Assembly: GCA_021205375.1 (NCBI GenBank)
Contig: JAJPXR010000060.1
Span: 1 to 36,959 of the forward strand
Source: Clostridiales bacterium
Lineage (GTDB): Bacteria; Bacillota; Clostridia; Oscillospirales; Oscillospiraceae
Length of the DNA stretch: 36,959 bases
Reading direction: 5' to 3'
In this document: positions 1 to 29,215 of the stretch, piece by piece
How the letters are laid out: each line of letters starts with the position of its first letter
How positions within the stretch are numbered: position 1 is the stretch's first letter
Notes under the pieces: generated by a model
What the model was told of the DNA's origin: nothing
Seen by the model: only the letters and a program-made list of their open reading frames with translations
Database searches by the model: none
Translations under genes and position numbers: made by a program

Positions 1-416
1 TTACAGGTAAATTCCTGCCCCACCACGTCGGCGCTGCCCCAGAGTTCTAGCGCCAGCCCTTTGGACACCAGCCCCGCCCCTTGCTGGAGCGCCCCCGGCT
101 CTGCGCCGTCCAGCAATTCCACCTGCACCACGTCCCCCAACGTACCGCAGTACCGCACCGCCAGCGCATCGGCGGCGGCATAGGCCGTCTCCGCATCGCC
201 CGCCTCCTCCCACCAGGAGGTGACGTTGTATTGGGCGGTTTCTTCCTCCAACAGGGCGGCGAGGCTCTGGGCCTGAGCCTCTGTCAGTCCGCTCCCCAAG
301 CGGAGGGAGACGGAGGGGTAGGTGTTTTCAATGGTTCCCGCGCACCGCCAGGCCAGCAGCAGACAAAGGAAGAATGTCCCCACCCAGAGGCAGCGAGTTA
401 TCCTTCGCCGCTTCAT
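1..416 (-). CDS. MacB/FtsX-like ABC permease-family membrane protein (N-terminal part; runs off the window edge)
   Basis: Not in the ORF track because there is no stop. Read manually from ATG at 416 (ATGA overlap with the upstream stop): MKRRRITRCLWVGTFFLCLLLAWRCAG (TM) ... LLDGAEPGALQQGAGLVSKGLALELWGSADVVGQEF, resembling the MacB periplasmic core motif (vs..lA..lfg..dvvG..). Confidence 0.65.
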   Translation of the reverse strand, partial: MKRRRITRCLWVGTFFLCLLLAWRCAGTIENTYPSVSLRLGSGLTEAQAQSLAALLEEETAQYNVTSWWEEAGDAETAYAAADALAVRYCGTLGDVVQVELLDGAEPGALQQGAGLVSKGLALELWGSADVVGQEFTC

Positions 417-2047
417 TGGCTCACCCTCACGTACTCGCCATCCTCTACCGAGCGGCTGGCACTGATGACGATCTGACTGCCGCTGCTCAGCACTCCGTCT
501 ATCGCCGCCAGTTCTCCGTTGCTGGCCAGCAACGTCACCGATTCTCTGCGAATCTGATACCGCAGCCCCAGCACTGACTCCGCCTCCTCCACCACAAAGA
601 CAAAGCCCCCGGCGTTGTCCTCGTGGTAGGCCCCGATGGGAATGGTCAGGTCGTACCGCTCGCTGGTCAGGGTGACGCTAACTGTGGCGCTGCCATCTGT
701 CCAGTCCCCGGTCAGGTAGGCGGTGCCGGTCAGCGTCCCGGTCTCGCTGTCCTGCGTCAGGGCGGCCAGGGTGACGGTGCCTTCTGTGTCCTCTTGCGTT
801 ACCTGGAGGGCCGCGCCGTCGGGTACCTGTTCCAGCTCGCTGCCGGTCAGGGTCAGCACATAACTGTCGCTCTGGGCGGTCAGATGTACCTCCACCAGCT
901 CGGAGGAATCCCCCGCCGCCCCGGTGACAGAGACGACTTTCCCATCGCAGGGGGCGGTCAGCACGCCGCCGTTTTCCTGGAGGGCGGTGAGGGCGACCAC
1001 TTGTTCCTCCTGCTGGGCGACGGTGACGGACAAAATCAGCGTCTCCGCCTGGTTCTGCTGATTCTGGGCCTCTGCGTCCGCCTGAGCGTCGGTCAGGTCG
1101 TCCTGGGCCGCGCTGAGGGCGGCCTCTGCGTCCTCCAGACTGCGCTGACTGCTGCGTTTGCTGTCCGAGGCCGCTGTGTTGGCGTCCTCCAGAGCTTCCT
1201 GGGCGGAATCCAGCGTCTGTTGGGCGCTTTCCACCGACTCCTGCGCCGCCGTGATTTGATCGTCATAGGAAGAGAGACTTGCCTCGTCCGTTGCGATTTG
1301 GGCCTCCAGCGCTTCGATTTGGTTTTGCAGTTCCTGTGTGTCCGCATCCGTTTCTCCCGCCGCTGAGGTGTCGCCCGCCCCGGCGGTTTCTGTTTCAGAG
1401 AGCAGACTTTTCAGGTCAGACAGCTCCGTTTTTTCTTCGCTGATGGTCGTTTTCAGGTCGGAACGCTTGTTTTTCAGGCTTTTCAGTTCCGATTTGGCGG
1501 TGCTCAGCGCTGATTTTGCGTCGGACACCGCCGCCTTCGCCCGGCTGACCTGGGTGGACTGGGCGGCGGCTTCGCTGTTCGCGTCCTCCTTGGCCCGGTC
1601 GTAGGCGGTCTGGGCGGAGGTCACAGGGGAATCGTCCGCCTCCTGCTCCTCCTGATAGGCGGCCATTTGCAGGTTCAGCTTGTCCAGTTCCCCCTGGGCT
1701 TGGGTCAACGCCTGGGCCACGGTGTCCGCGTCCACCTGAACCAGCCCGTCCCCTTCTTTCACGGTTTGCCCCTCCGTCACCAGCACGGACTGAACGGTGA
1801 GGCCGTCAGGCAGGGTCAGCACCTCCACGCTCTGGCTCTCCACCGTGCCGGTCAGCGTCAGCGTCTCCGCTACCGTGGCGGCGGCGGGGGCCTGGGTGGT
1901 CACGGTGGTCAGGGCCGCCCCTGCCATGCCCCGTGAAAACAGGGTCAGCGCCAGCATCAGCAGGAAGAACGCCCCAATGCGCCAGGCCGCTTTGCCCTCA
2001 CCACTGTCTCCCGCGCCCTTCGGCAAGTGGATTTTGTCCCATTTCAT
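413..2047 (-). CDS. HlyD/MacA-like membrane fusion (periplasmic adaptor) protein with very long coiled coil
   Basis: N-terminal TM, lipoyl-like half motifs (VQSVLVTEGQTVKEGDGLV; LTAPCDGKVVSV), long Ala/Gln/Glu coiled coil, C-terminal LTIP..A...FVFVV...GSQIV..VEDGEYV. Start set to MKWDK after RBS AAGGGGG. Confidence 0.8.
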   Translation of the reverse strand: MKWDKIHLPKGAGDSGEGKAAWRIGAFFLLMLALTLFSRGMAGAALTTVTTQAPAAATVAETLTLTGTVESQSVEVLTLPDGLTVQSVLVTEGQTVKEGDGLVQVDADTVAQALTQAQGELDKLNLQMAAYQEEQEADDSPVTSAQTAYDRAKEDANSEAAAQSTQVSRAKAAVSDAKSALSTAKSELKSLKNKRSDLKTTISEEKTELSDLKSLLSETETAGAGDTSAAGETDADTQELQNQIEALEAQIATDEASLSSYDDQITAAQESVESAQQTLDSAQEALEDANTAASDSKRSSQRSLEDAEAALSAAQDDLTDAQADAEAQNQQNQAETLILSVTVAQQEEQVVALTALQENGGVLTAPCDGKVVSVTGAAGDSSELVEVHLTAQSDSYVLTLTGSELEQVPDGAALQVTQEDTEGTVTLAALTQDSETGTLTGTAYLTGDWTDGSATVSVTLTSERYDLTIPIGAYHEDNAGGFVFVVEEAESVLGLRYQIRRESVTLLASNGELAAIDGVLSSGSQIVISASRSVEDGEYVRVSQ

Positions 2048-2064
2048 GGTATCCCCCCTTGTAG

Positions 2065-2214
2065 AATGTGCAATGTGCAATTAGCAATGTGCAATGACCT
2101 GTTTTCCACCATAGCTGTCCTGTGGGGGCCATCAGTGGAAAACAAAGGCTTTTAGGAGCTGCCAGCGTCCGATTCCCCTCATAATTGCACATTTCACACT
2201 GCAAATTGCTAATT
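2065..2214. repeat. Inverted pair of heptamer tandem arrays (AATGTGC-type)
   Basis: aatgtgc-aatgtgc-aattagc-aatgtgc-aatgacc (2065-2099) and complementary gcacatt-tcacact-gcaaatt-gctaatt (2187-2214). Confidence 0.8.
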
Positions 2215-2215
2215 G

Positions 2216-4477
2216 TTAAAATTGTTCTGCCAGCATCAGTGCCAACTCGTCCTCCACCTGCGCCACGGCCTCGTCCAGCGTCAGCTCCCCGGAGCAGTAC
2301 GGCTCCGCCAGCTCCAACACGGTCTCCGTCACCAGCTCACTGGCCGCCGCCGGGGTGGTGCGGCCGTCCAGCAGCTCCCGCAGCTCTTCGATGTCCCAGC
2401 CGTACTCTGCGGCGGGGTCGGTGAAATAGTCCAGTTGTTTGTCCATGGCCTCCTGCAAGACGGGCAGACCGTCCCCGTAGGTGTACTGCTGCACCTCCAT
2501 GGACAGGGCGCAGGCCACGAACTCCTTCGCCGTCTCGGTGTCGTCGCTGCCGGCGCTCACTGCCAGCAGCACCTCTGGGGTATAAGCCCCTTCCACCAGG
2601 CCGGGGAGCGGAGCTACAGAAAACGAACCTTCTTTCTCGTATTTCTCATAGGTGGAGAGGGCCATCACCAAATCCTCCACCGCGTCCAGGGTGGTGAATC
2701 CCCAGGGGCTGTCGCTGTTCAGCCAGGTATAGGCGTCGTCCTCCACATACGTGTTCAGGTTGCCGTAGTCATAGGTACCGGGGATGACCTCCTCGGACAG
2801 GGAATCCACCGCATCATCCTTCGGAGCATAGTAACCGTAGGTATCGCAGATGGTTTTCAGGGCGGTGAGCCAGGTGCGCAGGTTTTCAGTCTGCACTCCA
2901 TCGCTGTTCACCAGCGCCGACGCGCTGGAATCCCACAGGCTCCATACCATATCATACTTGGTGGTTGCCAGACAGGGGTCGTCTCCGCCCGCCTGTTCTA
3001 CAGCCTCCGCCAACTCTTCCAGGCTGTCCGGCGTCTCCTCCTGGCTGCTCAGCAGCAGGGGCACCGTGAACCGGGCGGGAATCACATACGTTCCGCTATC
3101 CTCCTGCCGGAAAGCGGACACGGTCCCTCCCACAAAGTCTGTCCCCTCCACCAGGTCGCTCAAGTCCTCCAGTACACCCCGGCTGGCATATGTCTCGTAG
3201 TCCGCGCCGTCCAAAATCAGCACGTCCGGGCCGCTCCCCGCCAGAAGCTGGGTGTTCAGGGTGGTCAACACGTCGTTCAGGGTCTTGCTGTCGTCCTCTC
3301 CGTAGTCCTGCACCTGGAAGTCGATCTCTACCTCCGGGTGGGTCTCCTGAAAGGCGTAGATGGCCTGCCGGACGGTGGCGCTGTCCTCCAGCGCCCAGAC
3401 GGTCAGGGTGGTGTCGCCGTAGGTCGCGCCGGTGTCGTAGTCGTAGCGGTAGAGGGAGAGGTCTTTCTGCTCGCTCCGGGCGTTGATGTAGATGGTGTTG
3501 TCCTCTGCCACATAAAAGTCCTGGCTGTCGCCGAGGAGCGCCATGTCAGAGCTGTAGCGGTAGTCGGTGCCGTCCAGCACGATTTCCTTCAGGTTTGACC
3601 CCAAAATGCCCATGCAGAAGTTCAGGTCCTCGTCAATGAAGTAATAGTTCCCCGCCTCCTTCATGAGGCAGCTGGTCAGGAGGCGGCCATTGTCGTACAT
3701 TCCGGTCAGATCCAGCGCCTCCAGCGATGTTCCGTCGCTGAGGTTATAGGAGTTGTGGAACTCTAAACCGTCGCTGACAAACACTGTGTCCCCGGCCACG
3801 GCGAAGTCGAAGTTGTAATAATCCGAGGATACCGACCACAGAAATTCCCCGGTGGTGATGTCCATAGCGTAGAGCGTAGAGCCGACCTCGCCGCTCATGC
3901 TGAACAGCAGGTATTTGTCCTGATAGAGACCGCACTGGCTCCAGCCGTTGATGTTCTTGTCCGGGTCGCAGAAGGGGTAATCCGTGGTGGTTTCCTCCCC
4001 GTCCTTCTGCCGGTACAAGCGCACCGCCTCCACGGTAGAGGTGTCGTTGTCCTCATCGTAATCCATCACAAACGTCCAGCTGTAGACCGTACCATCTGCC
4101 GCGAAGTACCAGTAATCAGAAAAATCTCCTGTCCACAGGCCGGACAGCTCCTGTTCCGCCCAGGTGTCCCCCTTGTCCTCAGAGTGGTACCAGATGGTTT
4201 TGGTGGTCATATCTCCCTCATCGGCCCAGGAGCTGAACCGCACCGCCAGGTCAAGGGTTCCGTCATCGCCGTATTGCAGGGTGGTACAGGTGTTGACATC
4301 CGCATCGGCGGCGTAGGCAGCGTAGCTCTCCGGGGTGATGTTGGTCTCCACATAGCGGCCAATGCTGCTGGTGAGCTGGTCGCTGTCGTCGCTGGACGCG
4401 CCCCCGCCGCCGCAGGCGCACAGGGTCAGCAGCAGGGCGAAGGCCAGGGTGAGGGATAGGTATTTTTTCAGTTTCAT
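2216..4477 (-). CDS. Large extracellular solute-binding lipoprotein (N-terminal beta-propeller-like region plus family 1 SBP domain)
   Basis: Lipobox LCAC; Asp-box YHSEDKGDTW; PQQ-like repeat LYAMDITTGEFLW; SBP motifs LTVWA, FQETHPEVEI, LLAGSGPDVL, GVLEDLSDL, AKEFV; RBS AAGGAGG. Confidence 0.85.
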   Translation of the reverse strand: MKLKKYLSLTLAFALLLTLCACGGGGASSDDSDQLTSSIGRYVETNITPESYAAYAADADVNTCTTLQYGDDGTLDLAVRFSSWADEGDMTTKTIWYHSEDKGDTWAEQELSGLWTGDFSDYWYFAADGTVYSWTFVMDYDEDNDTSTVEAVRLYRQKDGEETTTDYPFCDPDKNINGWSQCGLYQDKYLLFSMSGEVGSTLYAMDITTGEFLWSVSSDYYNFDFAVAGDTVFVSDGLEFHNSYNLSDGTSLEALDLTGMYDNGRLLTSCLMKEAGNYYFIDEDLNFCMGILGSNLKEIVLDGTDYRYSSDMALLGDSQDFYVAEDNTIYINARSEQKDLSLYRYDYDTGATYGDTTLTVWALEDSATVRQAIYAFQETHPEVEIDFQVQDYGEDDSKTLNDVLTTLNTQLLAGSGPDVLILDGADYETYASRGVLEDLSDLVEGTDFVGGTVSAFRQEDSGTYVIPARFTVPLLLSSQEETPDSLEELAEAVEQAGGDDPCLATTKYDMVWSLWDSSASALVNSDGVQTENLRTWLTALKTICDTYGYYAPKDDAVDSLSEEVIPGTYDYGNLNTYVEDDAYTWLNSDSPWGFTTLDAVEDLVMALSTYEKYEKEGSFSVAPLPGLVEGAYTPEVLLAVSAGSDDTETAKEFVACALSMEVQQYTYGDGLPVLQEAMDKQLDYFTDPAAEYGWDIEELRELLDGRTTPAAASELVTETVLELAEPYCSGELTLDEAVAQVEDELALMLAEQF

Positions 4478-4583
4478 ATTCGTTTCCTCCTTTGGGTTTT
4501 GACATATATATTTGCGATTGCGAACGATTCAGTTTGTGAAAACATTTGAATCTATCGCTTGCGTTCCGTGATTGACCACCCCT

Positions 4584-4718
4584 CTTGCCTCCCCTGTGAA
4601 GCGCTGGCCGAATGGCCAATTCCTCTTTAGCGCAAATGCAGGGAGCTATGGCCTTTAGGCCATGCGAGTCGCAAAGGGGAGGAGGGCCGCCGCCTTTAGG
4701 CGGTGGCGGAGGGGTTTC
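4584..4718. repeat. REP-like palindromic intergenic element, copy 1
   Basis: cttgcctcccct...aaaggggaggagggccgccgcctttaggcggtggcggaggggtttc; 4673-4718 matches 6771-6815 except for one indel. Confidence 0.8.
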
Positions 4719-4746
4719 TGGCACATGGTTATTCACAGCGATAACC

Positions 4747-4767
4747 CCAAATTGCACATTGCAAATT
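4747..4767. repeat. Short AATGTGC-type heptamer array at the permease stop codon
   Basis: ccaaatt-gcacatt-gcaaatt overlapping the TAA at 4766-4768. Confidence 0.6.
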
Positions 4768-5614
4768 ATTCCTTCACGGCTCCCTGCAAGATCCCCTGCT
4801 CCAAATACCGCTGCCCGAACAGGAAAATCAGCAGGGCCGGCAGCAGGGCGATGAAGCTGGCCGCCATGGAGAGACCCAGGTTATCCATCACCACCTGGGG
4901 CAGGTACAGAGTCAGGGGCCAGTTCTCTGCCGACTCCAGAAAGGTCATGGGCTGCTCCACCGCGCCCCAGGCGTCCAGAAAACCCAGCACAAAGGCGGAG
5001 ATGAGGCCCGGAAGGTTCATAGGCAGCCCCAGCCGGAAGAAAATGGTGAACTGCCCCGCCCCGTCCAGCTCCGCCGCCTCGATGACGCTCTTGGGGATGG
5101 CCTCGAAGCCACGGGTCAGGATGAACACCGGGTAGGTGGAGAAAATGCCCGGCAGAATCACCGCCCAAATGGTGTCCATCAGGTGCAGCCGGTTCAGCAC
5201 CAGATAGCTGGGTACCATCGTCACCTGGAAGGGCAGCAGCATCAGCACCACATACACCCCGAACAGCGCCCGCCGTCCCGGAAACCGCAGTTTGGCGAAG
5301 GCCCAGGCCGCGGGCGCGCCCACCGCCAGCTGCCCTAGCGCCTGGGGAAACGCCTGTTTGCAGCTGTTCCAGAATACCGCGAAAAACTCCGGCGTGTCCA
5401 GCAGCAGTTCCGCCAGGGAGGACAGAGTGGGACAGTTGGGGAGCAGGAACCACCGGGCGTAGCCCTCCCCCTCCCCAAAGACCGGCCCCAACAGGGCGCT
5501 CAGCTCATCGGCGGGGAGGAAAATCCCCATGACGATGAACCACAACGGCCACCAAATCAGCAGCGCCAGCGCCAGCAGCCCGGCGTAGAGCGCCGCCCGT
5601 TTCACCTGCTTCAT
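4766..5614 (-). CDS. Carbohydrate (CUT1) ABC transporter permease, MalG-like
   Basis: EAA loop IPKSVIEAAELDGAGQF, FWNS, LPFQVTMVP, C-terminal QGILQGAVKE; real start MKQVK (ATGA overlap at 5611-5614). Confidence 0.92.
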   Translation of the reverse strand: MKQVKRAALYAGLLALALLIWWPLWFIVMGIFLPADELSALLGPVFGEGEGYARWFLLPNCPTLSSLAELLLDTPEFFAVFWNSCKQAFPQALGQLAVGAPAAWAFAKLRFPGRRALFGVYVVLMLLPFQVTMVPSYLVLNRLHLMDTIWAVILPGIFSTYPVFILTRGFEAIPKSVIEAAELDGAGQFTIFFRLGLPMNLPGLISAFVLGFLDAWGAVEQPMTFLESAENWPLTLYLPQVVMDNLGLSMAASFIALLPALLIFLFGQRYLEQGILQGAVKE

Positions 5615-6480
5615 GCTCCGTCCAGCCTCCAATACCTCCGGCCCAGACCGATGACGGCCAGCAGCGCCAGCACCATCAGGCAGGCGGCGGCGGTGAGCCG
5701 CCCCATGTCCAGGTCCAAAAACCAGTTGTTGAACAGGTGCTGGAGCAGGTACATACTCTCGTGGGGGTAGTTCCCCGCCACCAGATACGCCTCCCGAAAT
5801 ACCTTGAAGCTGTTGAGGAGGGACAGCAGTCCCACCACCCCCGCCATAGGCCGCAGCTCCGGCAGGGTGACGTAACGGAACTGCTGGAAGGTCCCCGCGC
5901 CGTCTGCGGCGGCGGCCTCGTAGAGGTCTTTGGAGATGTCGTCCAGCCCCGCCAGCCACAAGATCATGTCATACCCGGCGTTTTTCCAGAGGTATGTCAC
6001 CACCAGTACCCAAAAGGCGGCGTTGGTGCCGAGGAAGGACACCGGCTCCCCGCCCAGACGGACGATGACCCCGTTCACCAAGCCGCTGTCGCTGAACAGC
6101 ACCTTCCACAGCAGCACGATGGCGCTGACCGGCACCGCCATAGGCAGCAGAAAGGTGCTCTGGAACACGCCGCCCTTGTTCTTTTGCGCCCGCACCATCA
6201 GCGCCAGAACCAGGGACAGCCCCAGCAGCAGGGGCAGGCAGACGCAGAGGAATTTTGCGGTGTTCCTCGCCGCCAACTGAAAGGCGCTGTTGCCGACCAC
6301 CTGGCGGTAGTTGGTCAGCCCCACCCAGCGGTTGCCCATGGCGTTGCAGAAGGAGCGACGGACAGTGTCCCAGAAGGGGATCAGCACGAACACGCTCAGC
6401 CCGGCCAGGCTGGGGGCCAGGAAGGGGAGGGCGGTTTTGAGCTGGCGCAGGTGCGGATGGGTATTCTTCTTTCGCTTCAT
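5611..6480 (-). CDS. Carbohydrate (CUT1) ABC transporter permease, MalF-like
   Basis: FLAPSL, VGLTNY, LLPMAVP, WKNAGY, ISKDLYEAAAADGA, SFKVF; RBS AAGGAGG before MKRKK. Confidence 0.92.
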   Translation of the reverse strand: MKRKKNTHPHLRQLKTALPFLAPSLAGLSVFVLIPFWDTVRRSFCNAMGNRWVGLTNYRQVVGNSAFQLAARNTAKFLCVCLPLLLGLSLVLALMVRAQKNKGGVFQSTFLLPMAVPVSAIVLLWKVLFSDSGLVNGVIVRLGGEPVSFLGTNAAFWVLVVTYLWKNAGYDMILWLAGLDDISKDLYEAAAADGAGTFQQFRYVTLPELRPMAGVVGLLSLLNSFKVFREAYLVAGNYPHESMYLLQHLFNNWFLDLDMGRLTAAACLMVLALLAVIGLGRRYWRLDGA

Positions 6481-6514
6481 AGCGGCCCCTCCTTGTGGTT
6501 TTGCTTTCTGCCCT

Positions 6515-6558
6515 ATTGTAGCGCGTTCTTTGACCGCGTACCTCAAAGGAATCTTAAA
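6515..6558 (-). promoter_or_regulatory. Response-regulator box plus -10 for the permease operon
   Basis: Minus strand TTTAAG-ATTCC-TTTGAG (6558-6542), 21 nt, TACAAT (6520-6515). Confidence 0.75.
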
Positions 6559-6622
6559 TTAGCTCTTAGCTTCTAGCTATTAGCTGTTAGCCTGGTGGTG
6601 CTTGCCTGTTCGCTCTGCGCTT
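6559..6622. repeat. TTAGCTN heptamer array plus flank homologous to 8941-9005 (inverted)
   Basis: ttagctc-ttagctt-ctagcta-ttagctg-ttagcct, then gtgcttgcctgttcgctctgcgctt, which resembles the reverse complement of aagcgcagagcaaaacagcaagcac at 8941-8965. Confidence 0.75.
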
Positions 6623-6655
6623 TTGGGGTGCGTTCCTCCTGTTTGGAGGGGAAAT

Positions 6656-6699
6656 TTTCAGGTTCCTTTGAGGTTTCCTGCGTTGGTTTCTGGTATAAT
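6656..6699 (+). promoter_or_regulatory. Response-regulator box plus extended -10 for the two-component operon (autoregulation)
   Basis: TTTCAG-GTTCC-TTTGAG (6656-6672), 21 nt, TG-n-TATAAT (TATAAT at 6694-6699). Confidence 0.75.
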
Positions 6700-6724
6700 G
6701 GGAGTAAACGACCCCTACTACCCC

Positions 6725-6815
6725 CTTGCCTCCGCCGTCAAGCGGCACTTCCGCTACGCTCCCTGCCCTGAAAGGGGAGGAGGGCCGCCGCCTTTGGCGG
6801 TGGCGGAGGGGTTTC
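6725..6815. repeat. REP-like palindromic intergenic element, copy 2, with nested module
   Basis: cttgcctcc[gccgtcaagcggcacttccgctacgctccctg]ccctgaaaggggaggagggccgccgcctttggcggtggcggaggggtttc. Confidence 0.8.
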
Positions 6816-6890
6816 CGCTGAAATAACCGACAAGGCTGATGCAAAGAGATAACCAATAAAGATAAAAATGTTTGAAAAGAGGGAACTACT

Positions 6891-7655
6891 ATGCACATCC
6901 TGCTCATAGAGGACGACCCCCAGCTCTCCCAACTGGTGGCCGACCAGCTCCGTCAACTGGGGCATCAGGTGGATACCACCAACCACGGCAACGAGGGCCT
7001 CTCCCTGCTGCGCCGGGGGGACTACGACGGCTGCATCCTTGACAGGATGCTTCCCGGTCTGGACGGGCTGACCCTGCTCCGCCGGGCCAGAGCCGCCGGG
7101 GTAACGACCCCCGTACTGATGCTCACCGCCCTAGGCCGGACGGAGGACCTGGTGGACGGCTTTGAGACCGGCGCCGACGACTACCTGGCCAAGCCCTTCG
7201 CTATGCCGGAGCTGCTGGCGCGGGTGGGGGCGTTGCTCCGCCGTGGCGCGAAAAAGTCCCCCGCCACGCTGGAGGCGGGGGACCTGACGCTGGAATTAGA
7301 TTCCATGGTGCTCACCGGGCCGGAGGGTAGCTGCACCCTGACCCGGCGAGAGCTGGACCTGCTGGCCCTGCTGCTGGAGCAGCCCGGCCAGGTGGTGCCG
7401 CGGGAGCGGTTCTTTCAGGCGGTCTGGGGGGTAGACGCCCCAGTGGGGGATGCCTCCCTGGACACCTATATCTATTTTCTCCGGCGGCGGCTGAAAACCG
7501 TGGGGACCCGCTGGAAGCTGACCACCCGCCGGGGAACGGGGTATCTGTTGCAGGCAGGGAGCGCAGCGGAAGTGCCGCTTGACGGCGGAGAAGCGCAGCT
7601 TCGGAAGTGTCCCTTGAGGGCAGAAGTGCCGCTTGAAGGCGAGGAAACGCCATGA
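6891..7655 (+). CDS. OmpR/PhoB-family DNA-binding response regulator
   Basis: ILLIEDD, ILDRMLPGLDG (phospho-Asp), LMLTA, GADDYLAKPF, LTRRE, winged helix ending RGTGYLL; ~30-aa tail is repeat-derived. Confidence 0.95.
   Translation: MHILLIEDDPQLSQLVADQLRQLGHQVDTTNHGNEGLSLLRRGDYDGCILDRMLPGLDGLTLLRRARAAGVTTPVLMLTALGRTEDLVDGFETGADDYLAKPFAMPELLARVGALLRRGAKKSPATLEAGDLTLELDSMVLTGPEGSCTLTRRELDLLALLLEQPGQVVPRERFFQAVWGVDAPVGDASLDTYIYFLRRRLKTVGTRWKLTTRRGTGYLLQAGSAAEVPLDGGEAQLRKCPLRAEVPLEGEETP
7553..7640. repeat. Repeat module GAAGTGCCGCTTGACGGC (three degenerate copies) within the regulator 3' end
   Basis: 7553-7590 is the reverse complement of 6730-6767 with one mismatch; further copies at 7603-7621 and 7622-7640. 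Confidence 0.8.
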
Positions 7656-8908
7656 TTTCAGCTCTGCGGCGGCGGCTGGCGGCGCTGTTCGGCGGTTTGA
7701 CCAGTCTGGTGCTGGCGGTCATGCTGGTGATCACCTGCGCCCTGAGCTGCACCCAGTACCAAAGCAGCCAGGAGGTGCTGTACCAGAACCGATTCCAAAC
7801 CCTGCTCCAACAGCTCCAGCGCAACGGTGAGGTCAGCGACAGCTACCTCTCCCAGGTGGCGGGGGAGGAACCGCTGCTGTTTTACGCCCAGGTGGAGGGG
7901 GTGCCGCTGCACTTCTCCGCCCTGTGGTCGGACACGGTGGGGGACAGCGGCGTTCTCTCCGCCATGCAGGAGGAGGCCGCCCGCCAGGGGGCCAGCGAAA
8001 AGGAAAACAGCCTGCTCACGTTCACTCTCGCCGTGAGCGGGACCCGCTACCGCTGCACCGTCTACACCATCCCGGACTATCAGGTGTACTTCGCCCAGAA
8101 CCTGACCCGGCAGCGTGCCCACCTCCGGGGGCTGGTGGGCCTTTACCTGCTGCTGGGGGCAGTGGGGGTGTCCGCCATGCTGCTGGTGAGCTGGCTGCTC
8201 TCCCGCCTCGCCACCCGGCCCACGGAACAGGCAGTGCAGGAGCAGCAATCATTCATCGCCGCCGCCAGCCACGAGCTGCGCAGCCCGTTGGCGGTGGTGC
8301 GGGCCAGCCTTTACACCGCCAGCCAGCAGAGCGACCAACCGGCAGTACGGAGCCAACTGGCCCTGGCCGACCAGGAGGCGGAGAGGATGAGCCGCCTGGT
8401 GGGGGACCTGTTGACCCTGACCGGGGGCAGCGTGGGGCGTTTGACCTGTAAAAGTGACCCGGTGGAGATGGAGACAGTGTGTATCCGGCTCTACGACCTG
8501 TTTTCTGTTCAAGCAGAGCAAAAACAGCACCCCTTCCGGCTGGACCTGCCGGATGAGGTGCTGCCGGTAATTTCATCGGACGAGCAGCGGCTCATTCAAC
8601 TGCTGTCGGCACTGCTGGCCAACGCCCTGGACCACACTCCCGCGGGGACAGCGGTGGAACTGCGGGCCAGGGTGGAAGGGACTTTTGTGACCCTCGCTGT
8701 GGTTGACCACGGCCCAGGCATCCCCGACGGCGAAAAAAAGGCGGTGTTCCGCCGGTTTTACCGCGCGGAGCAGAGCCGCACCGACAAGGGGCACTTTGGA
8801 CTGGGCCTCTCCATCGCCCAGGAGCTGGCCGGGCAGTTGGGGGGACAACTGACGCTGGAGGACACCCCCGGCGGCGGAGCCACCTTTGAATTAGCCCTTA
8901 GCCATTAG
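7652..8908 (+). CDS. Sensor histidine kinase (HisKA + HATPase_c)
   Basis: Two TM segments, H-box FIAAASHELRSPL, N-box LLANALDHT, DHGPGI, FRRFYR, GLGLSIA; ATGA overlap with the regulator. Confidence 0.95.
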   Translation: MISALRRRLAALFGGLTSLVLAVMLVITCALSCTQYQSSQEVLYQNRFQTLLQQLQRNGEVSDSYLSQVAGEEPLLFYAQVEGVPLHFSALWSDTVGDSGVLSAMQEEAARQGASEKENSLLTFTLAVSGTRYRCTVYTIPDYQVYFAQNLTRQRAHLRGLVGLYLLLGAVGVSAMLLVSWLLSRLATRPTEQAVQEQQSFIAAASHELRSPLAVVRASLYTASQQSDQPAVRSQLALADQEAERMSRLVGDLLTLTGGSVGRLTCKSDPVEMETVCIRLYDLFSVQAEQKQHPFRLDLPDEVLPVISSDEQRLIQLLSALLANALDHTPAGTAVELRARVEGTFVTLAVVDHGPGIPDGEKKAVFRRFYRAEQSRTDKGHFGLGLSIAQELAGQLGGQLTLEDTPGGGATFELALSH

Positions 8909-9005
8909 CCGTTAGCTGTTAGTTTGGCACTACAAACGATAAGCGCAGAGCAAAACAGCAAGCACTTTCAAGCTAATAGCCGTCAGCTAAAAGCTAACAG
9001 CTCTA
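8891..9005. repeat. Inverted pair of TTAGCNN heptamer arrays
   Basis: ttagccc-ttagcca-ttagccg-ttagctg-ttagttt (8891-8925, includes the kinase TAG) and agctaat-agccgtc-agctaaa-agctaac-agctcta (8971-9005). Confidence 0.8.
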
Positions 9006-9049
9006 TTTCAGATTTCTTTTAGGTAACGCGGGGCAAAGCGCGGTATGAT
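9006..9049 (+). promoter_or_regulatory. Response-regulator box plus -10 for the second lipoprotein gene
   Basis: TTTCAG-ATTTC-TTTTAG (9006-9022), 21 nt, TATGAT (9044-9049). Confidence 0.72.
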
Positions 9050-9079
9050 GGACCCATCAACCGACAGGAGGTCACGTTT

Positions 9080-11302
9080 ATGAAAAAACTGCTATCCCTT
9101 TTGCTGTGCCTGGCCCTGCTGCTGCCGCTGGCGGCCTGCGGCGGCGGCAGTGTAGAGACACAGGGAGACGCCAGCGGCGAATGGACGGTCAACAGCACCG
9201 GCACCACCCTGCGCTACGGGGAGGAAAACATCACCCCCACGCTGGCCGACGGCTCCGCTGCCAGCATTGAGAAAATGCAGGGCTGGGATGACGGCAGCCT
9301 GGATGCCTTTGGCTACCGGGAGTGGTATCACTCGGAGGACGGCGGCGACACCTGGGAGACCCGAACCGTGCCGGAGGACTTTCTCGCCATCCTGTGCGTG
9401 GACGGCGAGGGTGCGCTCTACGGTCTGGGACAGGACAAGGAGAGCGAGCAATATGTCCTCTACCAGTACACCGCCGACGGCGAAACAGAGACCCTGCCCC
9501 TGGACAGCGGCATCGAATCCTTCTCTTGCTGCGCCATTTACGACAATCGCATTGCATTTGTGAAAGATGCCCGCGATGCTTTTAGCTCCACCCTCTACGC
9601 GGTGGAGCTTGCCACCGGGACCACCCTCTGGCAGCGGGAAAGCGACAGCCCCTCCCCGACGTGCTTCTGCTATGACGGGGCGCTTTACCTCTACGAGAGC
9701 GCATACCCCCTGCTGGCCCTGGACCCGGAGACCGGCGAGGAGCTGGGGGAGTATGGTGAGGACTTTATGTGCAACACTACCCAGCCCCTGCTGGCGGAAA
9801 ACGGGTACTATTTCTTCCTGGATGAGGACAATTTCAACCTCTGCCGGGGCATTTTCAATTCCAAAATTTACGAGGTCGTTCTTGATGCCGCTGACTACCG
9901 CTACAGCCTGGAGTGTCTGGAGGGGTATACCCCTCTGTCTGGCTTTTACATGGATGAGGATTACACCCTCTACCTGACCACCTACGAGGGCAGTCTGTAC
10001 CGCTTCGCCGTGGGCACAGAAGCGGTGGAGGCGGATAGCACCTTCACCATCTGGGCGCTGAACGAGACGGACACCCTCCGGGAGGCGGTGCTGGCCTTCC
10101 AGGAGGCCCACCCAGAGCTGGATGTGGAGCTGGAGGTGCAGTTGGACGAGGATGGTTCCGCCGAGGGCAGCGCCACCGTCAGCGACATCCTCTCCAACCT
10201 GAACACCCAGCTTCTGGCGGGGGACGGCCCGGACGTGCTGATTTTGGACGATGTGGATTACCAGACCTACATCGACAAAGGGGTACTGGAACCCCTGAAC
10301 GACCTCTATCAGGAGTACGATTTCGTGGGCGGTACTGTCTCCACTCTGCTGACCGAGGCGGGGGACTGCTATGTGATTCCCGCCCGGTTCTCCATGCCGG
10401 TCATCATGACCGACCAGGGAGAATTGCCCACCACGATGGAGGAACTGACCGAGCGGGTGCTGACCGGCGGCGGTCGGTCTGCGGAGCAGGCGACGGAGGA
10501 CGACCTGGGCTGGGAGGAAAACGCCTATCTGTTGCTCCAGCCCTCCGGCGAGTTCTATTCTGTCTGGCTGGCAGCCAGCGGCGGTTCTCTGGTGACGGAG
10601 GACGGGGTGGACGCTTCGGCCCTGACCACCTGGCTCAATGACTTGAAGCAAATCAGCGACCACTACGACCTGACCGACGGGGTGGAACTGGCCGGCAGCT
10701 CCTCCGGCAGTTCCTATGAGGGCTTCAGCTACGGCAACCGAAACGAGTATTTCCCCTCCGACGGTTGGTGGGGCGACGGCGCCGCAGGCGTCATGGTGAT
10801 GAACGACGTGCAGTCGCTGCTGGGCCAGATGGTGGCTATCTGCTCCGAATATGACGAGGAAACCGGCGAAACTGCGATTTCCCCCGACCCGAAACGCTTC
10901 CAAATCGCCCGGTGCCCCGGCCTGACGGAGGGAGCTTACAGCCCGGAGATGCTGATGGCGGTCACCGCGGGCAGCAGCCAGACGGAACTGGCGAAGGAGT
11001 TCATCGAAACCGCCCTTTCCGATGACGTCCAGCGCTACACCTACGGCGACGGTCTGCCCGTCACCCAGGCGGGCATAGACGCGCAGTTGGATTACTTTTC
11101 CGATTACGCCGAACAGTGCGGTTGGGACATTTCGGCGTTGGAGGCGATTTTCGACAGTTGCACCGCCCCGGTGACGCTGGAGCTGGAGGTACAGGACGCC
11201 CTGTACAAGGCGGCGAACGGTCTTTGTCTGGGGGAAATCGACCTGGACGGCGCGGTGACGCAAATCGAGGACGATTTTGCCCTGAAAATCGCAGAAAAAT
11301 AA
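9080..11302 (+). CDS. Large extracellular solute-binding lipoprotein, paralog of 2216-4477
   Basis: Lipobox LAAC; Asp-box YHSEDGGDTW; shared blocks LNTQLLAG.GPDVLILD, FVGGTVS, YVIPARF, EGAY.PE, VQ.YTYGDGLPV; RBS AGGAGG. Confidence 0.85.
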   Translation: MKKLLSLLLCLALLLPLAACGGGSVETQGDASGEWTVNSTGTTLRYGEENITPTLADGSAASIEKMQGWDDGSLDAFGYREWYHSEDGGDTWETRTVPEDFLAILCVDGEGALYGLGQDKESEQYVLYQYTADGETETLPLDSGIESFSCCAIYDNRIAFVKDARDAFSSTLYAVELATGTTLWQRESDSPSPTCFCYDGALYLYESAYPLLALDPETGEELGEYGEDFMCNTTQPLLAENGYYFFLDEDNFNLCRGIFNSKIYEVVLDAADYRYSLECLEGYTPLSGFYMDEDYTLYLTTYEGSLYRFAVGTEAVEADSTFTIWALNETDTLREAVLAFQEAHPELDVELEVQLDEDGSAEGSATVSDILSNLNTQLLAGDGPDVLILDDVDYQTYIDKGVLEPLNDLYQEYDFVGGTVSTLLTEAGDCYVIPARFSMPVIMTDQGELPTTMEELTERVLTGGGRSAEQATEDDLGWEENAYLLLQPSGEFYSVWLAASGGSLVTEDGVDASALTTWLNDLKQISDHYDLTDGVELAGSSSGSSYEGFSYGNRNEYFPSDGWWGDGAAGVMVMNDVQSLLGQMVAICSEYDEETGETAISPDPKRFQIARCPGLTEGAYSPEMLMAVTAGSSQTELAKEFIETALSDDVQRYTYGDGLPVTQAGIDAQLDYFSDYAEQCGWDISALEAIFDSCTAPVTLELEVQDALYKAANGLCLGEIDLDGAVTQIEDDFALKIAEK

Positions 11303-11305
11303 ACG

Positions 11306-11343
11306 AAAAACACTCCGGGCGCAGTATTCCGGAGTGTTTTTTT
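11306..11343. terminator. Rho-independent terminator, possibly bidirectional
   Basis: aaaaa-cactccgg-loop-ccggagtg-ttttttt immediately after the stop. Confidence 0.85.
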
Positions 11344-11435: not shown

Positions 11436-11969
11436 CTATAATTTGCTTTTCAGCAATCCCAGTACGTTGGAGATCTTCTCCACCGGCTCCGGGTTTTCGC
11501 TGTTCAGCCAGTCGTAAAGGACAGAAAAGGTCCCCTGAAAGACAAACTGGCGGATATACTTTACCTCTGTCTCTGAATAATTGCTTTCGTCGAGCATATT
11601 CTGAAAAATAACGCCGATACTTGGGAGGGCGAACAGGTGCGAGGAAAATTCCTGCATGGGAACAGAGCGGACAAGGAGGCAGAACAGGTCCCTTTGTTCA
11701 TATAGGTGCTGTAAGGTCAGGAGCATAGCGTTGGAGCTTTGGGTGATGACCTGCTTGAGTTCCTCATCCAGTTGTCTGAGAAAGTCTGATTCAATTTCGT
11801 TCAGCAGTTCCTCTTGACTTCCATAGTATTTATAGAACGTGGTGCGGTTGATCTCCGACACCTTGCAAAGCTCATAAACCGTAATTTGGCTCAGCGGCTT
11901 TTTTCTGAGCAGCTTGAGCAGTCCTGTCTTGAGCATGGTTTTGCTGATACGCACTCTCTGATTTTCCAT
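11436..11969 (-). CDS. TetR/AcrR-family transcriptional regulator
   Basis: ITVYELCKVSEINRTTFYKYY HTH; start MENQRVRISK. Confidence 0.92.
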   Translation of the reverse strand: MENQRVRISKTMLKTGLLKLLRKKPLSQITVYELCKVSEINRTTFYKYYGSQEELLNEIESDFLRQLDEELKQVITQSSNAMLLTLQHLYEQRDLFCLLVRSVPMQEFSSHLFALPSIGVIFQNMLDESNYSETEVKYIRQFVFQGTFSVLYDWLNSENPEPVEKISNVLGLLKSKL

Positions 11970-12053
11970 CCCTTGCTCCACCTCGACAAATGTTTGATAA
12001 CTGTTGACTTTAAGACAATTGAGTTGAAAGTGTTGACCGCAGAACATTTCAAT

Positions 12054-12070
12054 GTCAACAGTATGTTGAC
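12054..12070. promoter_or_regulatory. Putative TetR operator palindrome
   Basis: Perfect GTCAACA-gta-TGTTGAC between divergent genes; further TGTTGAC half sites at 12002 and 12031; TATAAT at ~12090. Confidence 0.6.
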
Positions 12071-12319
12071 TTTAACTGCTTTCGTCTATTATAATGAAAG
12101 AGCGGAGATTTGTCAACTTTCAATTGCGGAAACCGCAGTAAGAAATCGACATCAACTCTGCGCAGAAGAAGAGGATAACACCACGCGGAAAAGCGCGCCT
12201 TTGGAATAAGCGGGCCTTGCCCGCTCAAGAAGAGCGGATTCCGACAAACAATGGAGCAGCGGGCTTGCGGCGAAAGCAGGACCGCTGCTCGAACGACCGG
12301 CCTGAAGGAGGCCAACACT

Positions 12320-13789
12320 ATGAATCATACTACCATTTACGAACGTTTTGCAGAAACCGTGACACAATTCCCTGACCAGCCTGCCATTATAGAACAGGCG
12401 CAGTCCCTGACCTACGCCCAGCTTGACCGGCGCATTGATGTAATTGCAGGAAACTTTCCCTCGCGGGAAAACTGCATTGGCATTGTGGCCGACCACGGGG
12501 CCGATTTCGTTGCCGCCATCTTTGCCGTGCTGAAAACCGGGGCGGCTTACGTTCCGGCAGAGCCGGATTTCCCGGAGGAACGCATCCGCTTCATGATGCG
12601 GGAGAGCAATGTGGGCTTCATCATCACCCAGAAAAAGTATCGGGAGAAGCTGGTTGGATTCCCTCTGCTGTTTCTGGAGGACATGACCGGGGAGACCGCT
12701 GTGCAGGAAAACAGACCCTTGACACGTCCGGCGTCTCTGGCCTATATTTTATATACCTCCGGCTCTACCGGCGTGCCGAAGGGCGTTTGCGTGACGAACG
12801 CCAACGTCTGTCATTATGTCCGGGCGTTTCAGCATGAGTTTCACCCCTCAGCCGGGGACGTGATGCTGCAATACTCCGTCTGCTCTTTCGATATTTTCGT
12901 GGAGGAGGTGTTCACCACCCTTCTCTCCGGGGCAGCCCTCGCCATCCCCGACGGTCAGGCGAGAGCGGATATCCATTCCCTGATGGACTTTGTGCGGGAG
13001 AAGAACGTGACCGTGCTCAGCGGGTTCCCCTATCTGCTGATGGAGCTGAACGAGCTGGAGCGCATCCCCTCCAGCCTGCGGCTGCTCATCAGCGGCGGCG
13101 ACATCCTCCGGGAGAGTTATGTGGACCATCTGCTGCCCCAGGTCACGGTTTACAACACCTATGGGCCGTCGGAGACCACCGTCTGTTGCAGCTATTTCCG
13201 CTGCAACGGCCAAAAGGCGCTGGAGGACGGCACCTATCCCATCGGAAAACCGGTGCTTGGAACGCAGATCGAACTGTTGGATGAGGACGGGCAGCCTGTC
13301 CCCGCCGGTTCTGTGGGGGAGCTTTGCATCTCCGGCGGCGGTGTCTCCAACGGATACCTCGACCAGAGCAAGAATGAGATGTTCGTGACCACAGAGGATG
13401 GAAAACGGCTCTACCGGAGCGGCGACCTGGGCTATCTCCTGCCAGACGGCAATCTGGCGTTCCTCCACCGCAGGGACTCTCAGGTGATGATCCTGGGGAA
13501 ACGGGTGGAGCCGGAGGAGGTGGAAAACGTCCTCTGCGACTGCGAGGAGGTGCAGACCGCTGTGGTCTGCCCGTTCACGGATGAGCATGGCCTCTCCTAC
13601 TTGACCGCCTATGTGGTCCCGGAGGGGACGAATTTTGTGCTATCTGAGGTCAAGAAAAAGCTGCGGCGTTATCTGACCTCCTTCATGATACCGGAATTTT
13701 TCGTGATTCTGGACCACATCCCGCTGACCCCCAACGGGAAGCCGGACGTAAAAAGCCTGCCGGTGGTGCTGAAAGAGGGGACCTGCTGA
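12320..13789 (+). CDS. Stand-alone amino acid adenylation domain protein (NRPS-like A domain)
   Basis: LTYAQL, LKTGAAYVP, YTSGSTGVPKG, SFDI, NTYGPSE, GELCISGGGVSNGY, YRSGDL, GKRVEPEEVE, PLTPNGK; no fused C or PCP domain; RBS AAGGAGG. Confidence 0.9.
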   Translation: MNHTTIYERFAETVTQFPDQPAIIEQAQSLTYAQLDRRIDVIAGNFPSRENCIGIVADHGADFVAAIFAVLKTGAAYVPAEPDFPEERIRFMMRESNVGFIITQKKYREKLVGFPLLFLEDMTGETAVQENRPLTRPASLAYILYTSGSTGVPKGVCVTNANVCHYVRAFQHEFHPSAGDVMLQYSVCSFDIFVEEVFTTLLSGAALAIPDGQARADIHSLMDFVREKNVTVLSGFPYLLMELNELERIPSSLRLLISGGDILRESYVDHLLPQVTVYNTYGPSETTVCCSYFRCNGQKALEDGTYPIGKPVLGTQIELLDEDGQPVPAGSVGELCISGGGVSNGYLDQSKNEMFVTTEDGKRLYRSGDLGYLLPDGNLAFLHRRDSQVMILGKRVEPEEVENVLCDCEEVQTAVVCPFTDEHGLSYLTAYVVPEGTNFVLSEVKKKLRRYLTSFMIPEFFVILDHIPLTPNGKPDVKSLPVVLKEGTC

Positions 13790-13790
13790 A

Positions 13791-14264
13791 TTGGAACTGA
13801 CAATCAGAAAAGCGGACGGCTCCGACTTGGAGGAGCTGGTGCGCTGGCGGGAAGTCGTTCTGCGGGAGGTTTTTTCCATTCCCGCCGGGGAGAATATGAC
13901 AGAGCTTCTCGCCGCAAACCGGGCGTATTACCAGACCGCGTTGGAGACGGGGGAACACATCGCCTGCTTCGCCTGCGCCGGAGAAAAAATCGTGGGCTGC
14001 GGCGGCGTCTGCCTCTACCGGGAGATGCCCTCGCCGGACAATCCCAGCGGCAAATGCGGGTATCTGATGAACATTTATACCCTACCCGCTATGCGTCAGC
14101 GAGGCGTGGGAAAAGAAGTCGTGCAGTGGCTGGTGCAGGAGGCGAAGGACTGGGGCGCGGAGAAGATTTATCTGGAGGCGTCGGAACAGGCGTATTCCCT
14201 GTATCGGTCGTTAGGCTTTCAGGATATGAAAGGATATTTGAAGTACAACGAAACATCGTTTTAG
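13791..14264 (+). CDS. GNAT family N-acetyltransferase
   Basis: NIYTLPAMRQRGVG acetyl-CoA motif, LYRSLGF; TTG start directly after the A-domain stop. Confidence 0.9.
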   Translation: MELTIRKADGSDLEELVRWREVVLREVFSIPAGENMTELLAANRAYYQTALETGEHIACFACAGEKIVGCGGVCLYREMPSPDNPSGKCGYLMNIYTLPAMRQRGVGKEVVQWLVQEAKDWGAEKIYLEASEQAYSLYRSLGFQDMKGYLKYNETSF

Positions 14265-14280
14265 GGCAAGGAGAGGGAGT

Positions 14281-19634: not shown

Positions 19635-19847
19635 CTGTTGTAAAACAGAGTATATGATAACAACAGGAAGCCCATGTACAAACAATGAGCGCCTGCCAGA
19701 GAATGTGCTGACCGGACGCGCAGAAAGACCGCGTTAAAAACCAATGTCACAACCCATTACATCCTTTATGGTATCAGCCTTGCGCAAGTCATTTATCTTG
19801 GGTAAACCAGCGTGATACAATGCAATCAGGACAAGGAGGTGAACCGC

Positions 19848-22359: not shown

Positions 22360-22426
22360 TTGACGGGGAGCGGTCTCTCTGGTGGGTGCAATGTTTCGCT
22401 GTATTAAGAAGAAGGGATGATTTACG

Positions 22427-22699: not shown

Positions 22700-22808
22700 C
22701 CATATAATACGAGCTGGCAAGCTTTTATGACCACACAACAAAACTATGCGACTTAGAAATTCCATAGGCGTTCAGACGCGCATCAGGGCTAAGGAGTGGC
22801 GTGGAATC

Positions 22809-23324: not shown

Positions 23325-23372
23325 ACGCATCAGCCTCGCATTGCGGTTGGAGCACGAAAGGGGGACAGGTTT

Positions 23373-27700: not shown

Positions 27701-27788
27701 TACCCGCTCTCCTTCTTTGCAGTCCGGGCCGCTGGCCCTGACGATAGATCATTGCAAGCAAACCCAAACAGAAAATTAGGAGGATCTT

Positions 27789-29198: not shown

Positions 29199-29215
29199 TT
29201 CGTTTTCCTCCAAAA

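What the first reader, a model, noticed from the sequence alone, without database searches (positions are those of the whole stretch)
1..11302. Hybrid importer/exporter-like envelope system under its own two-component system
Seen: one co-directional gene run joins import-type parts (MalF- and MalG-like permeases, solute-binding lipoprotein) with export-type parts (HlyD/MacA-like adaptor translationally coupled to a MacB-like membrane protein). It lies next to an RR/HK pair and a second paralogous lipoprotein, and no ATPase is in view. Established: CUT1 importers do not use membrane-fusion proteins, and MacAB-type systems do not use SBPs. Inference: these form a single uncharacterised surface machine for sensing, export or envelope-stress handling rather than a sugar importer. 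No catabolic gene or LacI/AraC regulator is adjacent. This is the best candidate for a new system in the window.
Basis: partly seen in the sequence, partly recalled or inferred. Interest (0 to 1): 0.8.

Follow-up and report, generated by a model that had tools for sequence, protein, structure and literature searches.

The report
Importer-type ABC pump with efflux adaptor
Many Clostridia and some Bacilli carry a conserved gene set that joins a nutrient-importer-type ABC transporter to an adaptor protein otherwise known from efflux pumps; it likely forms one sensor-controlled cell-wall machine handling something other than sugar, and its one studied relative, long filed as a cellodextrin importer, was later reported to bind none of the sugars tested.

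Summary
Observation confirmed, with corrections. Two CUT1-type permeases, a 753-aa beta-propeller/binding lipoprotein, an AcrA/MacA-fold adaptor and a MacB-like protein form one run; the RR/HK pair and a second lipoprotein run the other way. One 19-bp box sits exactly 19 nt before a -10 site at all three promoters. The adaptor accompanies this permease family in 33 of 37 genome/plasmid loci and 17 of 20 further hits, and in 0 of 17 ordinary CUT1 loci. The MacB-like protein ends on the next contig, has no FtsX domain (0 of 43 relatives) and no ATPase follows, so it is not an independent exporter. The motor is likely MalK/MsmK: 8 of 37 loci carry one in the run. The lipoproteins' closest solved structure is Clostridium thermocellum CbpC, reported to bind no tested sugar, with a blocked pocket and no knockout phenotype. 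Best reading: a binding-protein-gated, non-sugar type I ABC transporter with a wall-side adaptor scaffold. Physical assembly, direction and ligand are untested: the complex predictor was unavailable and no tree could be built. The scan noted this module before on other genomes; its 'never with an ATPase' is contradicted here.

The parts
3..416 (-). 5' part (138 codons) of the MacB-like membrane protein: TM1 and start of the MacB periplasmic core domain; remainder on G000:C172, whole protein about 330 aa, no FtsX domain
413..2047 (-). Periplasmic adaptor (membrane fusion) protein, 544 aa: TM helix 17-44, lipoyl halves, long helical hairpin (107-358), beta-barrel, membrane-proximal domain
2216..4477 (-). 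Lipoprotein 1, 753 aa (Cys22): N-terminal all-beta, propeller-like domain (about 41-348) plus CbpC-family solute-binding domain (354-753)
4766..5614 (-). MalG-like type I permease, 282 aa, EAA loop present (VIEAAELDGA)
5611..6480 (-). MalF/UgpA-like type I permease, 289 aa, EAA loop present (LYEAAAADGA)
6515..6558 (-). Permease-run promoter: 19-bp box TTTAAGATTCCTTTGAGGT, 19-nt spacer, -10 TACAAT
6656..6699 (+). RR/HK promoter: box TTTCAGGTTCCTTTGAGGT, 19-nt spacer, -10 TATAAT
6891..7655 (+). OmpR-family response regulator
7652..8908 (+). Sensor histidine kinase (HisKA, HATPase_c)
9006..9049 (+). Lipoprotein 2 promoter: box TTTCAGATTTCTTTTAGGT, 19-nt spacer, -10 TATGAT
9080..11302 (+). Lipoprotein 2, 740 aa, paralogue of lipoprotein 1
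11306..11341 (+). Terminator-like hairpin closing the plus-strand unit
   Evidence: z -4.45, 0 of 200 shuffles

Best explanation
This is a conserved gene module of two type I ABC permeases, CbpC-family lipoproteins, an efflux-type adaptor and a MacB-like protein without an FtsX domain, which likely assemble into one MalK/MsmK-powered, binding-protein-gated transporter that is predicted to take up or clear a non-sugar, envelope-side ligand when its two-component system switches it on. Shown here: linkage, family specificity, folds, intact EAA loops, loss of the MacB FtsX domain, the shared promoter box. Inferred: (a) the motor is a MalK-type dimer, in this genome probably the stand-alone one on C86; (b) the adaptor's TM helix and membrane-proximal domain dock on the permeases, because this is all that remains in the 122-130-aa versions; (c) the hairpin and the MacB periplasmic domain build a passive wall-side scaffold or funnel; (d) interchangeable lipoproteins dock through their conserved C-terminal lobe and supply specificity through variable parts; (e) the RR binds the box and activates all three promoters; (f) the ligand is probably peptidic or envelope-derived.
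For: Adaptor hit in 33 of 37 genome/plasmid loci with the family permease (the adaptor profile was trained on many of them; among loci not used to train it, 10 of 14), 62 of 80 redundant metagenome loci, and beside 17 of 20 permease hits in 15 further genomes; 0 of 17 ordinary CUT1 loci. Permease profile scores split at >=347 versus <=233 bits. MalK-type ATPase in the run in 8 of 37 loci and 6 of 80 metagenome loci; one MsmK-like gene elsewhere in 5 of 5 genomes tested. MacB_PCD in 28 of 43, FtsX in 0 of 43. Miniature adaptors in L030, L032, L169. Five genomes with no lipoprotein in the locus hold several scattered 550-1080-aa family lipoproteins, most matching to the conserved C-terminus. CbpC is the top structural and profile match (Z 29.2, rmsd 3.7, 360 aligned, next 24.9; 251 versus 118 bits). 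PMC9601137: CbpC bound no tested sugar, pocket blocked by a loop, knockout grew normally on glucose, cellobiose, Avicel. Box plus -10 at 19 nt occurs at exactly these three promoters in the genome and in L004, L005, L029. Neighbours in a hand-picked set include VanZ, D,D-carboxypeptidase, BlaR1, HtrA, LCP, C39 and radical-SAM-linked exporters.
Against: No physical interaction was tested, and no permease-adaptor fusion was found (a weak search). Nataf 2009, as cited in PMC11212667 and PMC9601137, reported sugar binding by CbpC; PMC8303734 saw msdC1/msdC2 up on glucose. Some loci lie beside GH5, GH9 or GH94 genes, and this genome has a GH3 gene downstream. Single-sequence search with lipoprotein 1 did not retrieve CbpC; the link is by profile and model, 19% identity. 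Whether the window's lipoproteins have a blocked pocket was not tested; an insertion CbpC has after its GPDV motif is absent from them. Stress-type neighbours were picked by me, not counted against a background, and none lies in this locus. Exceptions exist: L034, L051, L133, L138, L170 show no scored adaptor; L056/L057 lack the MacB-like gene. The box was not found by my fixed pattern in most distant loci.
Confidence: 0.45

Rival explanations
1. Repurposed motor: the type I permeases no longer carry a ligand inward. A ligand-free, pocket-blocked lipoprotein triggers MalK cycling, and the stroke is passed to the MacB-like domain and adaptor ring to expel or extract envelope-active molecules across the wall, as MacAB-type pumps do.
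For: MacB-like protein lost its own motor-coupling half yet is kept in 28 of 37 loci; adaptor keeps the full AcrA/MacA fold with a very long hairpin; CbpC pocket reported blocked; invariant C-terminal glutamate and variable middle in the lipoproteins; peptide-export and wall-stress neighbours.
Against: Loci with a hairpin-less adaptor and no MacB-like gene keep permeases, lipoprotein and (L032) ATPase, so a trans-wall tunnel is not the core; several different lipoproteins per genome fit receptors better than a trigger; no type I exporter is known to me (recalled).
Confidence: 0.25
2. Ordinary carbohydrate (CUT1) importer with accessory wall-spanning parts that help large oligosaccharides reach the binding protein.
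For: MalF/MalG homology, EAA loops, cluster D-type binding fold; shares MalK/MsmK; Nataf 2009 binding data as cited; glycoside hydrolase genes beside some loci.
Against: PMC9601137 ITC, NMR, structure and knockout; OmpR-type control by a three-promoter box rather than LacI/AraC; no conserved catabolic neighbour seen in the gene maps; controls never carry the adaptor (0 of 17).
Confidence: 0.15
3. Mainly a sensing complex: the transporter and the second lipoprotein feed the histidine kinase, as PstSCAB or BceAB do for their kinases (recalled), and transport is secondary.
For: Divergent RR directly beside the run in 34 loci (of about 117 family loci, many truncated); second lipoprotein behind the kinase; autoregulatory box.
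Against: In this genome the box marks only the module's own three promoters, so there is no visible output regulon; many loci have no TCS, or a NarL-type one.
Confidence: 0.1
4. Two independent systems (importer and MacAB-type exporter) that merely sit together.
For: Gaps of 288 and 168 nt with hairpin repeats separate permeases, lipoprotein and adaptor in this window.
Against: Those gaps shrink to 11-77 nt or overlaps in close relatives; the adaptor usually follows the MalG-like gene directly; no FtsX domain or MacB-type ATPase; linkage survives rearranged gene orders.
Confidence: 0.05

Closest known systems
Clostridium (Acetivibrio) thermocellum 'transporter C' (Cthe_2125-2128 / Clo1313_2783-86; CbpC, PDB 7X0O)
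   Same: CbpC is the best profile and structure match of the lipoproteins; a four-gene operon with two permeases, CbpC and no ATPase; Fig. 1 legend of PMC9601137 lists an 'acra' gene among the transporter clusters (that it is the unassigned Cthe_2127 of cluster C is my inference; the figure and genome were not seen).
   Different: Window lipoproteins have an extra 300-aa propeller-like domain and come in two copies; a MacB-like gene and a dedicated OmpR TCS are present; no MacB-like gene is reported for cluster C in the passages seen. The papers treat it as a putative sugar importer and do not discuss the adaptor in the passages I read.
CUT1 type I importers with shared ATPase (MalFGK2-E, UgpAEC-B, MsmX/MsmK-served systems)
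   Same: Permease homology, EAA loops, binding-protein fold, MalK-type ATPase in cis or trans.
   Different: Distinct permease family (family-specific motifs such as FREAYLxxGxYP and LQHxxNNxF); obligatory-looking adaptor; MacB-like partner; giant lipoproteins with invariant C-terminal Glu; no sugar ligand shown.
MacAB-type (type VII) systems: MacAB-TolC, B. subtilis YknXYZ, S. pneumoniae Spr0693-0695
   Same: Adaptor fold, MacB periplasmic core domain, adaptor gene coupled to MacB-like gene.
   Different: No FtsX domain, no MacB-type ATPase, single short MacB-like chain that is dispensable in some loci; paired with type I permeases and binding proteins.

Membership tests
Type I (CUT1-fold) ABC transporter | Two BPD_transp_1 permeases with EAA loops | tested here: met
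Type I (CUT1-fold) ABC transporter | Family-1 solute-binding lipoprotein | tested here: met
   PF01547 above cut-off, lipobox, fold
Type I (CUT1-fold) ABC transporter | MalK/MsmK ATPase in cis or trans | tested here: met
   In the run in 8 of 37 loci; G000:C86 holds one; pairing itself is inferred
CUT1 carbohydrate importer | Binds and imports a carbohydrate | not testable with these tools
   Relative CbpC: negative in PMC9601137, positive in Nataf 2009 as cited
CUT1 carbohydrate importer | No adaptor or MacB-like accessory | tested here: not met
   33 of 37 family loci have the adaptor, 0 of 17 ordinary loci
MacAB / type VII exporter | Periplasmic adaptor with lipoyl, hairpin, barrel and membrane-proximal domains | tested here: met
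MacAB / type VII exporter | MacB periplasmic core domain | tested here: met
   PF12704 in 28 of 43 relatives; profile hits MacB/YknZ structures; hhalign 97.5%
MacAB / type VII exporter | FtsX-type C-terminal TM domain with coupling helix | tested here: not met
   PF02687 in 0 of 43; alignment to MacB breaks down after TM2
MacAB / type VII exporter | Dedicated MacB/LolD-type ATPase | tested here: not met
   None after the gene on C172 or in L004/L005; in-run ATPases are MalK-type
Transporter C (CbpC) family | Binding protein of the CbpC sequence/structure group | tested here: met
   missed by single-sequence search
Transporter C (CbpC) family | MsdC1/MsdC2 belong to the same permease family and Cthe_2127 is the adaptor | not testable with these tools
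   C. thermocellum genome not retrievable by name; inferred from PMC8303734 locus tags and PMC9601137 legend
Transporter C (CbpC) family | Ligand pocket blocked by an extra loop | not tested
   Coordinates and Fig. S4 not available; loop residues not given in passages read
Dedicated permease clade | Monophyly on a tree | tested here: inconclusive
   Tree script lost; profile-score gap, more graded

The most novel reading that the evidence does not exclude
A new class of ABC machine in Gram-positive bacteria: a type I importer core is used as the motor of an adaptor/MacB-domain assembly that reaches into the cell wall, gated by a repertoire of interchangeable, pocket-blocked pseudo-binding lipoproteins whose beta-propellers choose the target. 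It would be the first type I ABC fold coupled to a periplasmic adaptor, and possibly the first working outward or by mechanotransmission.
Probability: 0.3. Interest if true: 0.9.

Novelty: new variant of a known kind. Interest (0 to 1): 0.7.

Why it matters
Periplasmic adaptors are known (recalled) with RND, MFS, type IV and type VII pumps, not with binding-protein-dependent importers. This family is large (at least 5,571 protein clusters at E<=1e-90; 49 of 398 genomes of the class at E<=1e-70) and is annotated everywhere as sugar uptake. It offers an explanation for a published puzzle, why C. thermocellum transporter C has no sugar ligand or phenotype, and makes it directly testable in an organism that already has a knockout and a crystal structure. 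The three-promoter box gives a ready reporter for finding the inducing signal.

Tried and rejected
Complex prediction (permease pair plus the 122-aa adaptor of L032, 63-row alignments prepared) was not available; nothing was folded. The permease tree was not obtained because the script machine was lost. The paper reader closed before supplements could be seen; Nataf 2009 is not held; supplements, above all Fig. S4 of PMC9601137 and C. thermocellum expression tables, may bear on the blocked pocket, on Cthe_2127 and on inducing conditions. The ESM Atlas gave no answer and the representatives search was busy. Search for fused permease-adaptor proteins: none among 7,996 candidates of 715-2,040 aa (weak). 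Paper searches for a description of the combination listed none that describes it by title or abstract start; two locus tags were guesses. The generic promoter scan missed the three promoters, which lack a -35. A CiaR-like TTTAAG-N5-TTTAAG pattern (recalled) hit only 3 of 34 divergent intergenic regions, so the box is lineage-specific. The propeller domain was not folded or searched alone; its label rests on DSSP and profile hits to PQQ, Pizza and WD40 propellers. A weak OEP hit in a 916-aa frame on C73 (24 bits) was not followed and is probably coiled coil. Rejected: independent MacAB exporter; GH3 neighbour as substrate clue.
Full report
1. What is in the window. The window is the whole of contig C15 of a 2.48-Mb, 95%-complete genome. 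Minus strand: MalF/UgpA-like permease 6480-5611 and MalG-like permease 5614-4766 (PF00528; MalG E 1e-22, UgpA 2.5e-20), lipoprotein 1 4477-2216, a 544-aa protein 2047-413 with sub-threshold HlyD/RND-MFP hits, and an ORF from 416 to the contig end with no Pfam hit. Plus strand: OmpR-type RR, HK and lipoprotein 2. ATGA overlaps join the permeases, the adaptor and last ORF, and RR/HK. Gaps of 288 and 168 nt around lipoprotein 1 hold hairpin repeats and are mostly much shorter in relatives (11 nt before the adaptor in L004; 77 and 54 nt before the lipoprotein in L005 and L029).

2. The left end. The full relative in L004 is 333 aa and is followed by a CRISPR array. Its residues 135-325 match G000:C172 at 76%; C172 begins with 12 bases identical to the window's end. 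After the stop come a 350-nt gap, a HAD hydrolase and a GH3 gene, no ATPase. The genome's MsmK-like ATPase (385 aa) stands alone on C86, divergent from lacZ and galK genes.

3. Conservation and specificity. A permease search of 300 scored genomes of the class gave 25 with E<=1e-50 including the window's own; I fetched all 25 non-self hit regions. A profile of 29 such permeases split 401 phylum genomes into 7 hits at 347-414 bits and 29 hits at 206-233 bits; I fetched the 4 new high hits and 16 of the 29 low hits. With plasmid regions and close relatives this gave 37 family loci and 17 ordinary controls. Local profiles found the adaptor in 33 of 37 (misses: L039 and L052 at contig ends, L034, L051), the MacB-like gene in 28 of 37, a family lipoprotein in 30 of 37, a MalK-type ATPase in the run in 8 of 37 (L032, L041, L056, L057, L060-L063), and adaptor or MacB-like genes in 0 of 17 controls (8-13 kb each). 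The profiles were trained on many of these loci; of 14 loci outside the adaptor alignment, 10 had it. In the best 80 of 509 metagenome hits (redundant), 62 showed the adaptor, 12 misses were cut by contig ends and 6 are unexplained; 6 had MalK in the run. A 63-row profile matched 49 of 398 class genomes with a more graded score range; in 15 of those genomes not used before, 17 of 20 permease hits had an adaptor within 3 kb on the same strand; one miss (L170) reads permease-permease-lipoprotein-recombinase. At least 5,571 protein clusters score E<=1e-90; named ones include Paenibacillus, Anaerocolumna and Cellulosilyticaceae. Kin are not independent, and no tree could be built.

4. Anatomy. The adaptor model (pLDDT 86, pTM 0.44) has a TM helix, lipoyl halves, helices 107-131, 140-224 and 232-358, a barrel and a membrane-proximal domain; Foldseek's top hits are AcrA, MacA, EmrA, MexA (E 5e-14 onward). 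Length varies from 122 to over 770 aa across loci; L030, L032 and L169 encode only TM helix plus C-terminal domain, without a MacB-like gene. Conserved columns lie at the end of the TM helix and in an LG turn of the C-terminal domain. The MacB-like proteins match PF12704 in 28 of 43 and PF02687 in 0 of 43; their profile aligns to MacB through TM1, the periplasmic domain and TM2 only. Both permeases keep EAA loops and family-specific motifs, with 41-42% mean column identity. Lipoprotein 1 (pLDDT 87, pTM 0.81) has an all-beta N-terminal domain whose profile hits propellers and a binding-protein domain; conserved positions cluster in LNTxLxAGxGPD and a C-terminal Glu, and the middle varies. Five genomes of one genus with no lipoprotein in the locus carry several family lipoproteins elsewhere, mostly about 800 aa, so one permease set can be served by a repertoire. 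Five of five genomes tested have one MsmK-like gene elsewhere.

5. Regulation. Reading the intergenic DNA showed the same 19-bp box before the permease run, the RR and lipoprotein 2. The pattern was built from those three sites, so their count is circular; the independent support is that each lies exactly 19 nt before a -10 hexamer, that no other site in the genome has both, and that L004 (3 sites), L005 (2) and L029 (1) have variant boxes with the same spacing (2 of 41 genomes, 0 reversed-pattern controls). A direct repeat in place of the -35 is how OmpR-family activators work (established knowledge); that this RR binds it is inferred. A divergent RR lies directly beside the run in 34 loci.

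6. The studied relative. The lipoprotein model's best match among 48,161 chains is C. thermocellum CbpC (Z 29.2, rmsd 3.7, 360 aligned; next 24.9; rank 2 by Foldseek). Family profiles score it 89 bits and 251 bits against 118 for the next chain; single-sequence search missed it. PMC9601137 (passages and section 5 read; figures and supplements not seen) reports no binding of CbpC to glucose, xylose or cellodextrins by ITC and NMR, a pocket blocked by an extra loop, normal growth of the transporter C mutant, an unexplained conflict with Nataf 2009, and lists an 'acra' gene in the operon figure legend. PMC8303734 (passages) assigns Cthe_2125, 2126 and 2128, leaving 2127, which I infer is the adaptor; it saw msdC1/2 up on glucose. 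PMC4788478 (passages) found Clo1313_2783-86 up in scaffoldin mutants. PMC11212667 (passages) still lists it as a cellodextrin transporter. PMC11466899 (12 passages) has no occurrence of 'membrane fusion' or 'periplasmic adaptor'. Searches (listings only) showed no paper treating the combination as a class; subscription journals are largely not covered.

7. Mechanism. Shown: one module, type I core with intact ATPase-coupling loops, adaptor as its most constant partner, MacB-like protein without its FtsX half, shared box. Inferred: MalK drives it; the adaptor's TM and membrane-proximal parts contact the permeases; hairpin and MacB domain form an optional wall-side scaffold; lipoproteins are interchangeable gates. 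Because the minimal versions lack hairpin and MacB-like protein, I favour binding-protein-gated uptake or clearance of a non-sugar ligand (0.45) over an outward, mechanotransmitting pump (0.25), a sugar importer (0.15), a pure sensor (0.10) or chance adjacency (0.05). The peptide/envelope guess rests on hand-picked neighbours (VanZ, D,D-carboxypeptidase, BlaR1, HtrA, LCP, C39 and radical-SAM-linked exporters), against glycoside hydrolases beside other loci, and is the weakest step.

8. Verdict. Real, widespread, specific and mis-annotated; not a MacAB member, a type I ABC transporter by its core but not shown to be a carbohydrate importer. New variant of a known kind, interest 0.70; categorically new if the adaptor proves to be driven by the type I core. 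Five earlier scan notes describe the same module in other genomes; they are not independent evidence, and the claim in one that it never carries an ATPase does not hold.

Noticed in passing
window 25917-30117: Second, ordinary CUT1 locus (two permeases, SBP) followed by a glycerophosphodiester phosphodiesterase: Ugp-like, also without ATPase.
   Followed up: partly
window 11436-14973: TetR gene, stand-alone NRPS-like adenylation enzyme (512 aa), GNAT and esterase; lower GC than the module.
   Followed up: no
window 19812-24053: DNA-damage cluster: Y-family polymerase, methyladenine glycosylase, YolD-like, HD protein, AlkZ-related.
   Followed up: no
window 2060-2215, 4670-4720, 6770-6815, 7560-7655, 8890-9002: Small repeated intergenic elements (7-nt repeat hairpins; a GC-rich hairpin present twice); a similar repeat appears to extend the RR C-terminus by about 30 residues.
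   Followed up: partly
L032:5771-6139, L030:10701-11078, L169:7334-7726: Natural miniature adaptors (122-130 aa: TM helix plus membrane-proximal domain only) directly behind the permeases.
   Followed up: partly
G305, G258, G100, G182, G233: One permease/adaptor locus but several scattered giant CbpC-family lipoproteins per genome.
   Followed up: partly
L168:11379-14531; L032:633-2806; L153: Module directly downstream of radical-SAM plus ABC exporter genes or a C39 peptidase exporter, as in peptide natural-product clusters.
   Followed up: partly
G078:C106:3530-4384 (585-aa frame); P0176 (617 aa): Possible fusion of the two permeases.
   Followed up: no
L036:14666-15916, L038, L040:4818-6056: Lipoprotein of about 415 aa upstream of the module with a NarL-type TCS; no Pfam hit, subtilase-like by eye.
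   Followed up: no
L056, L057: Bacillus cereus-group plasmids carry permeases, adaptor, lipoprotein(s) and UgpC but no MacB-like gene.
   Followed up: yes
L004:12700-21656: Long CRISPR array and cas genes (type I-C-like by eye) directly after the module.
   Followed up: no
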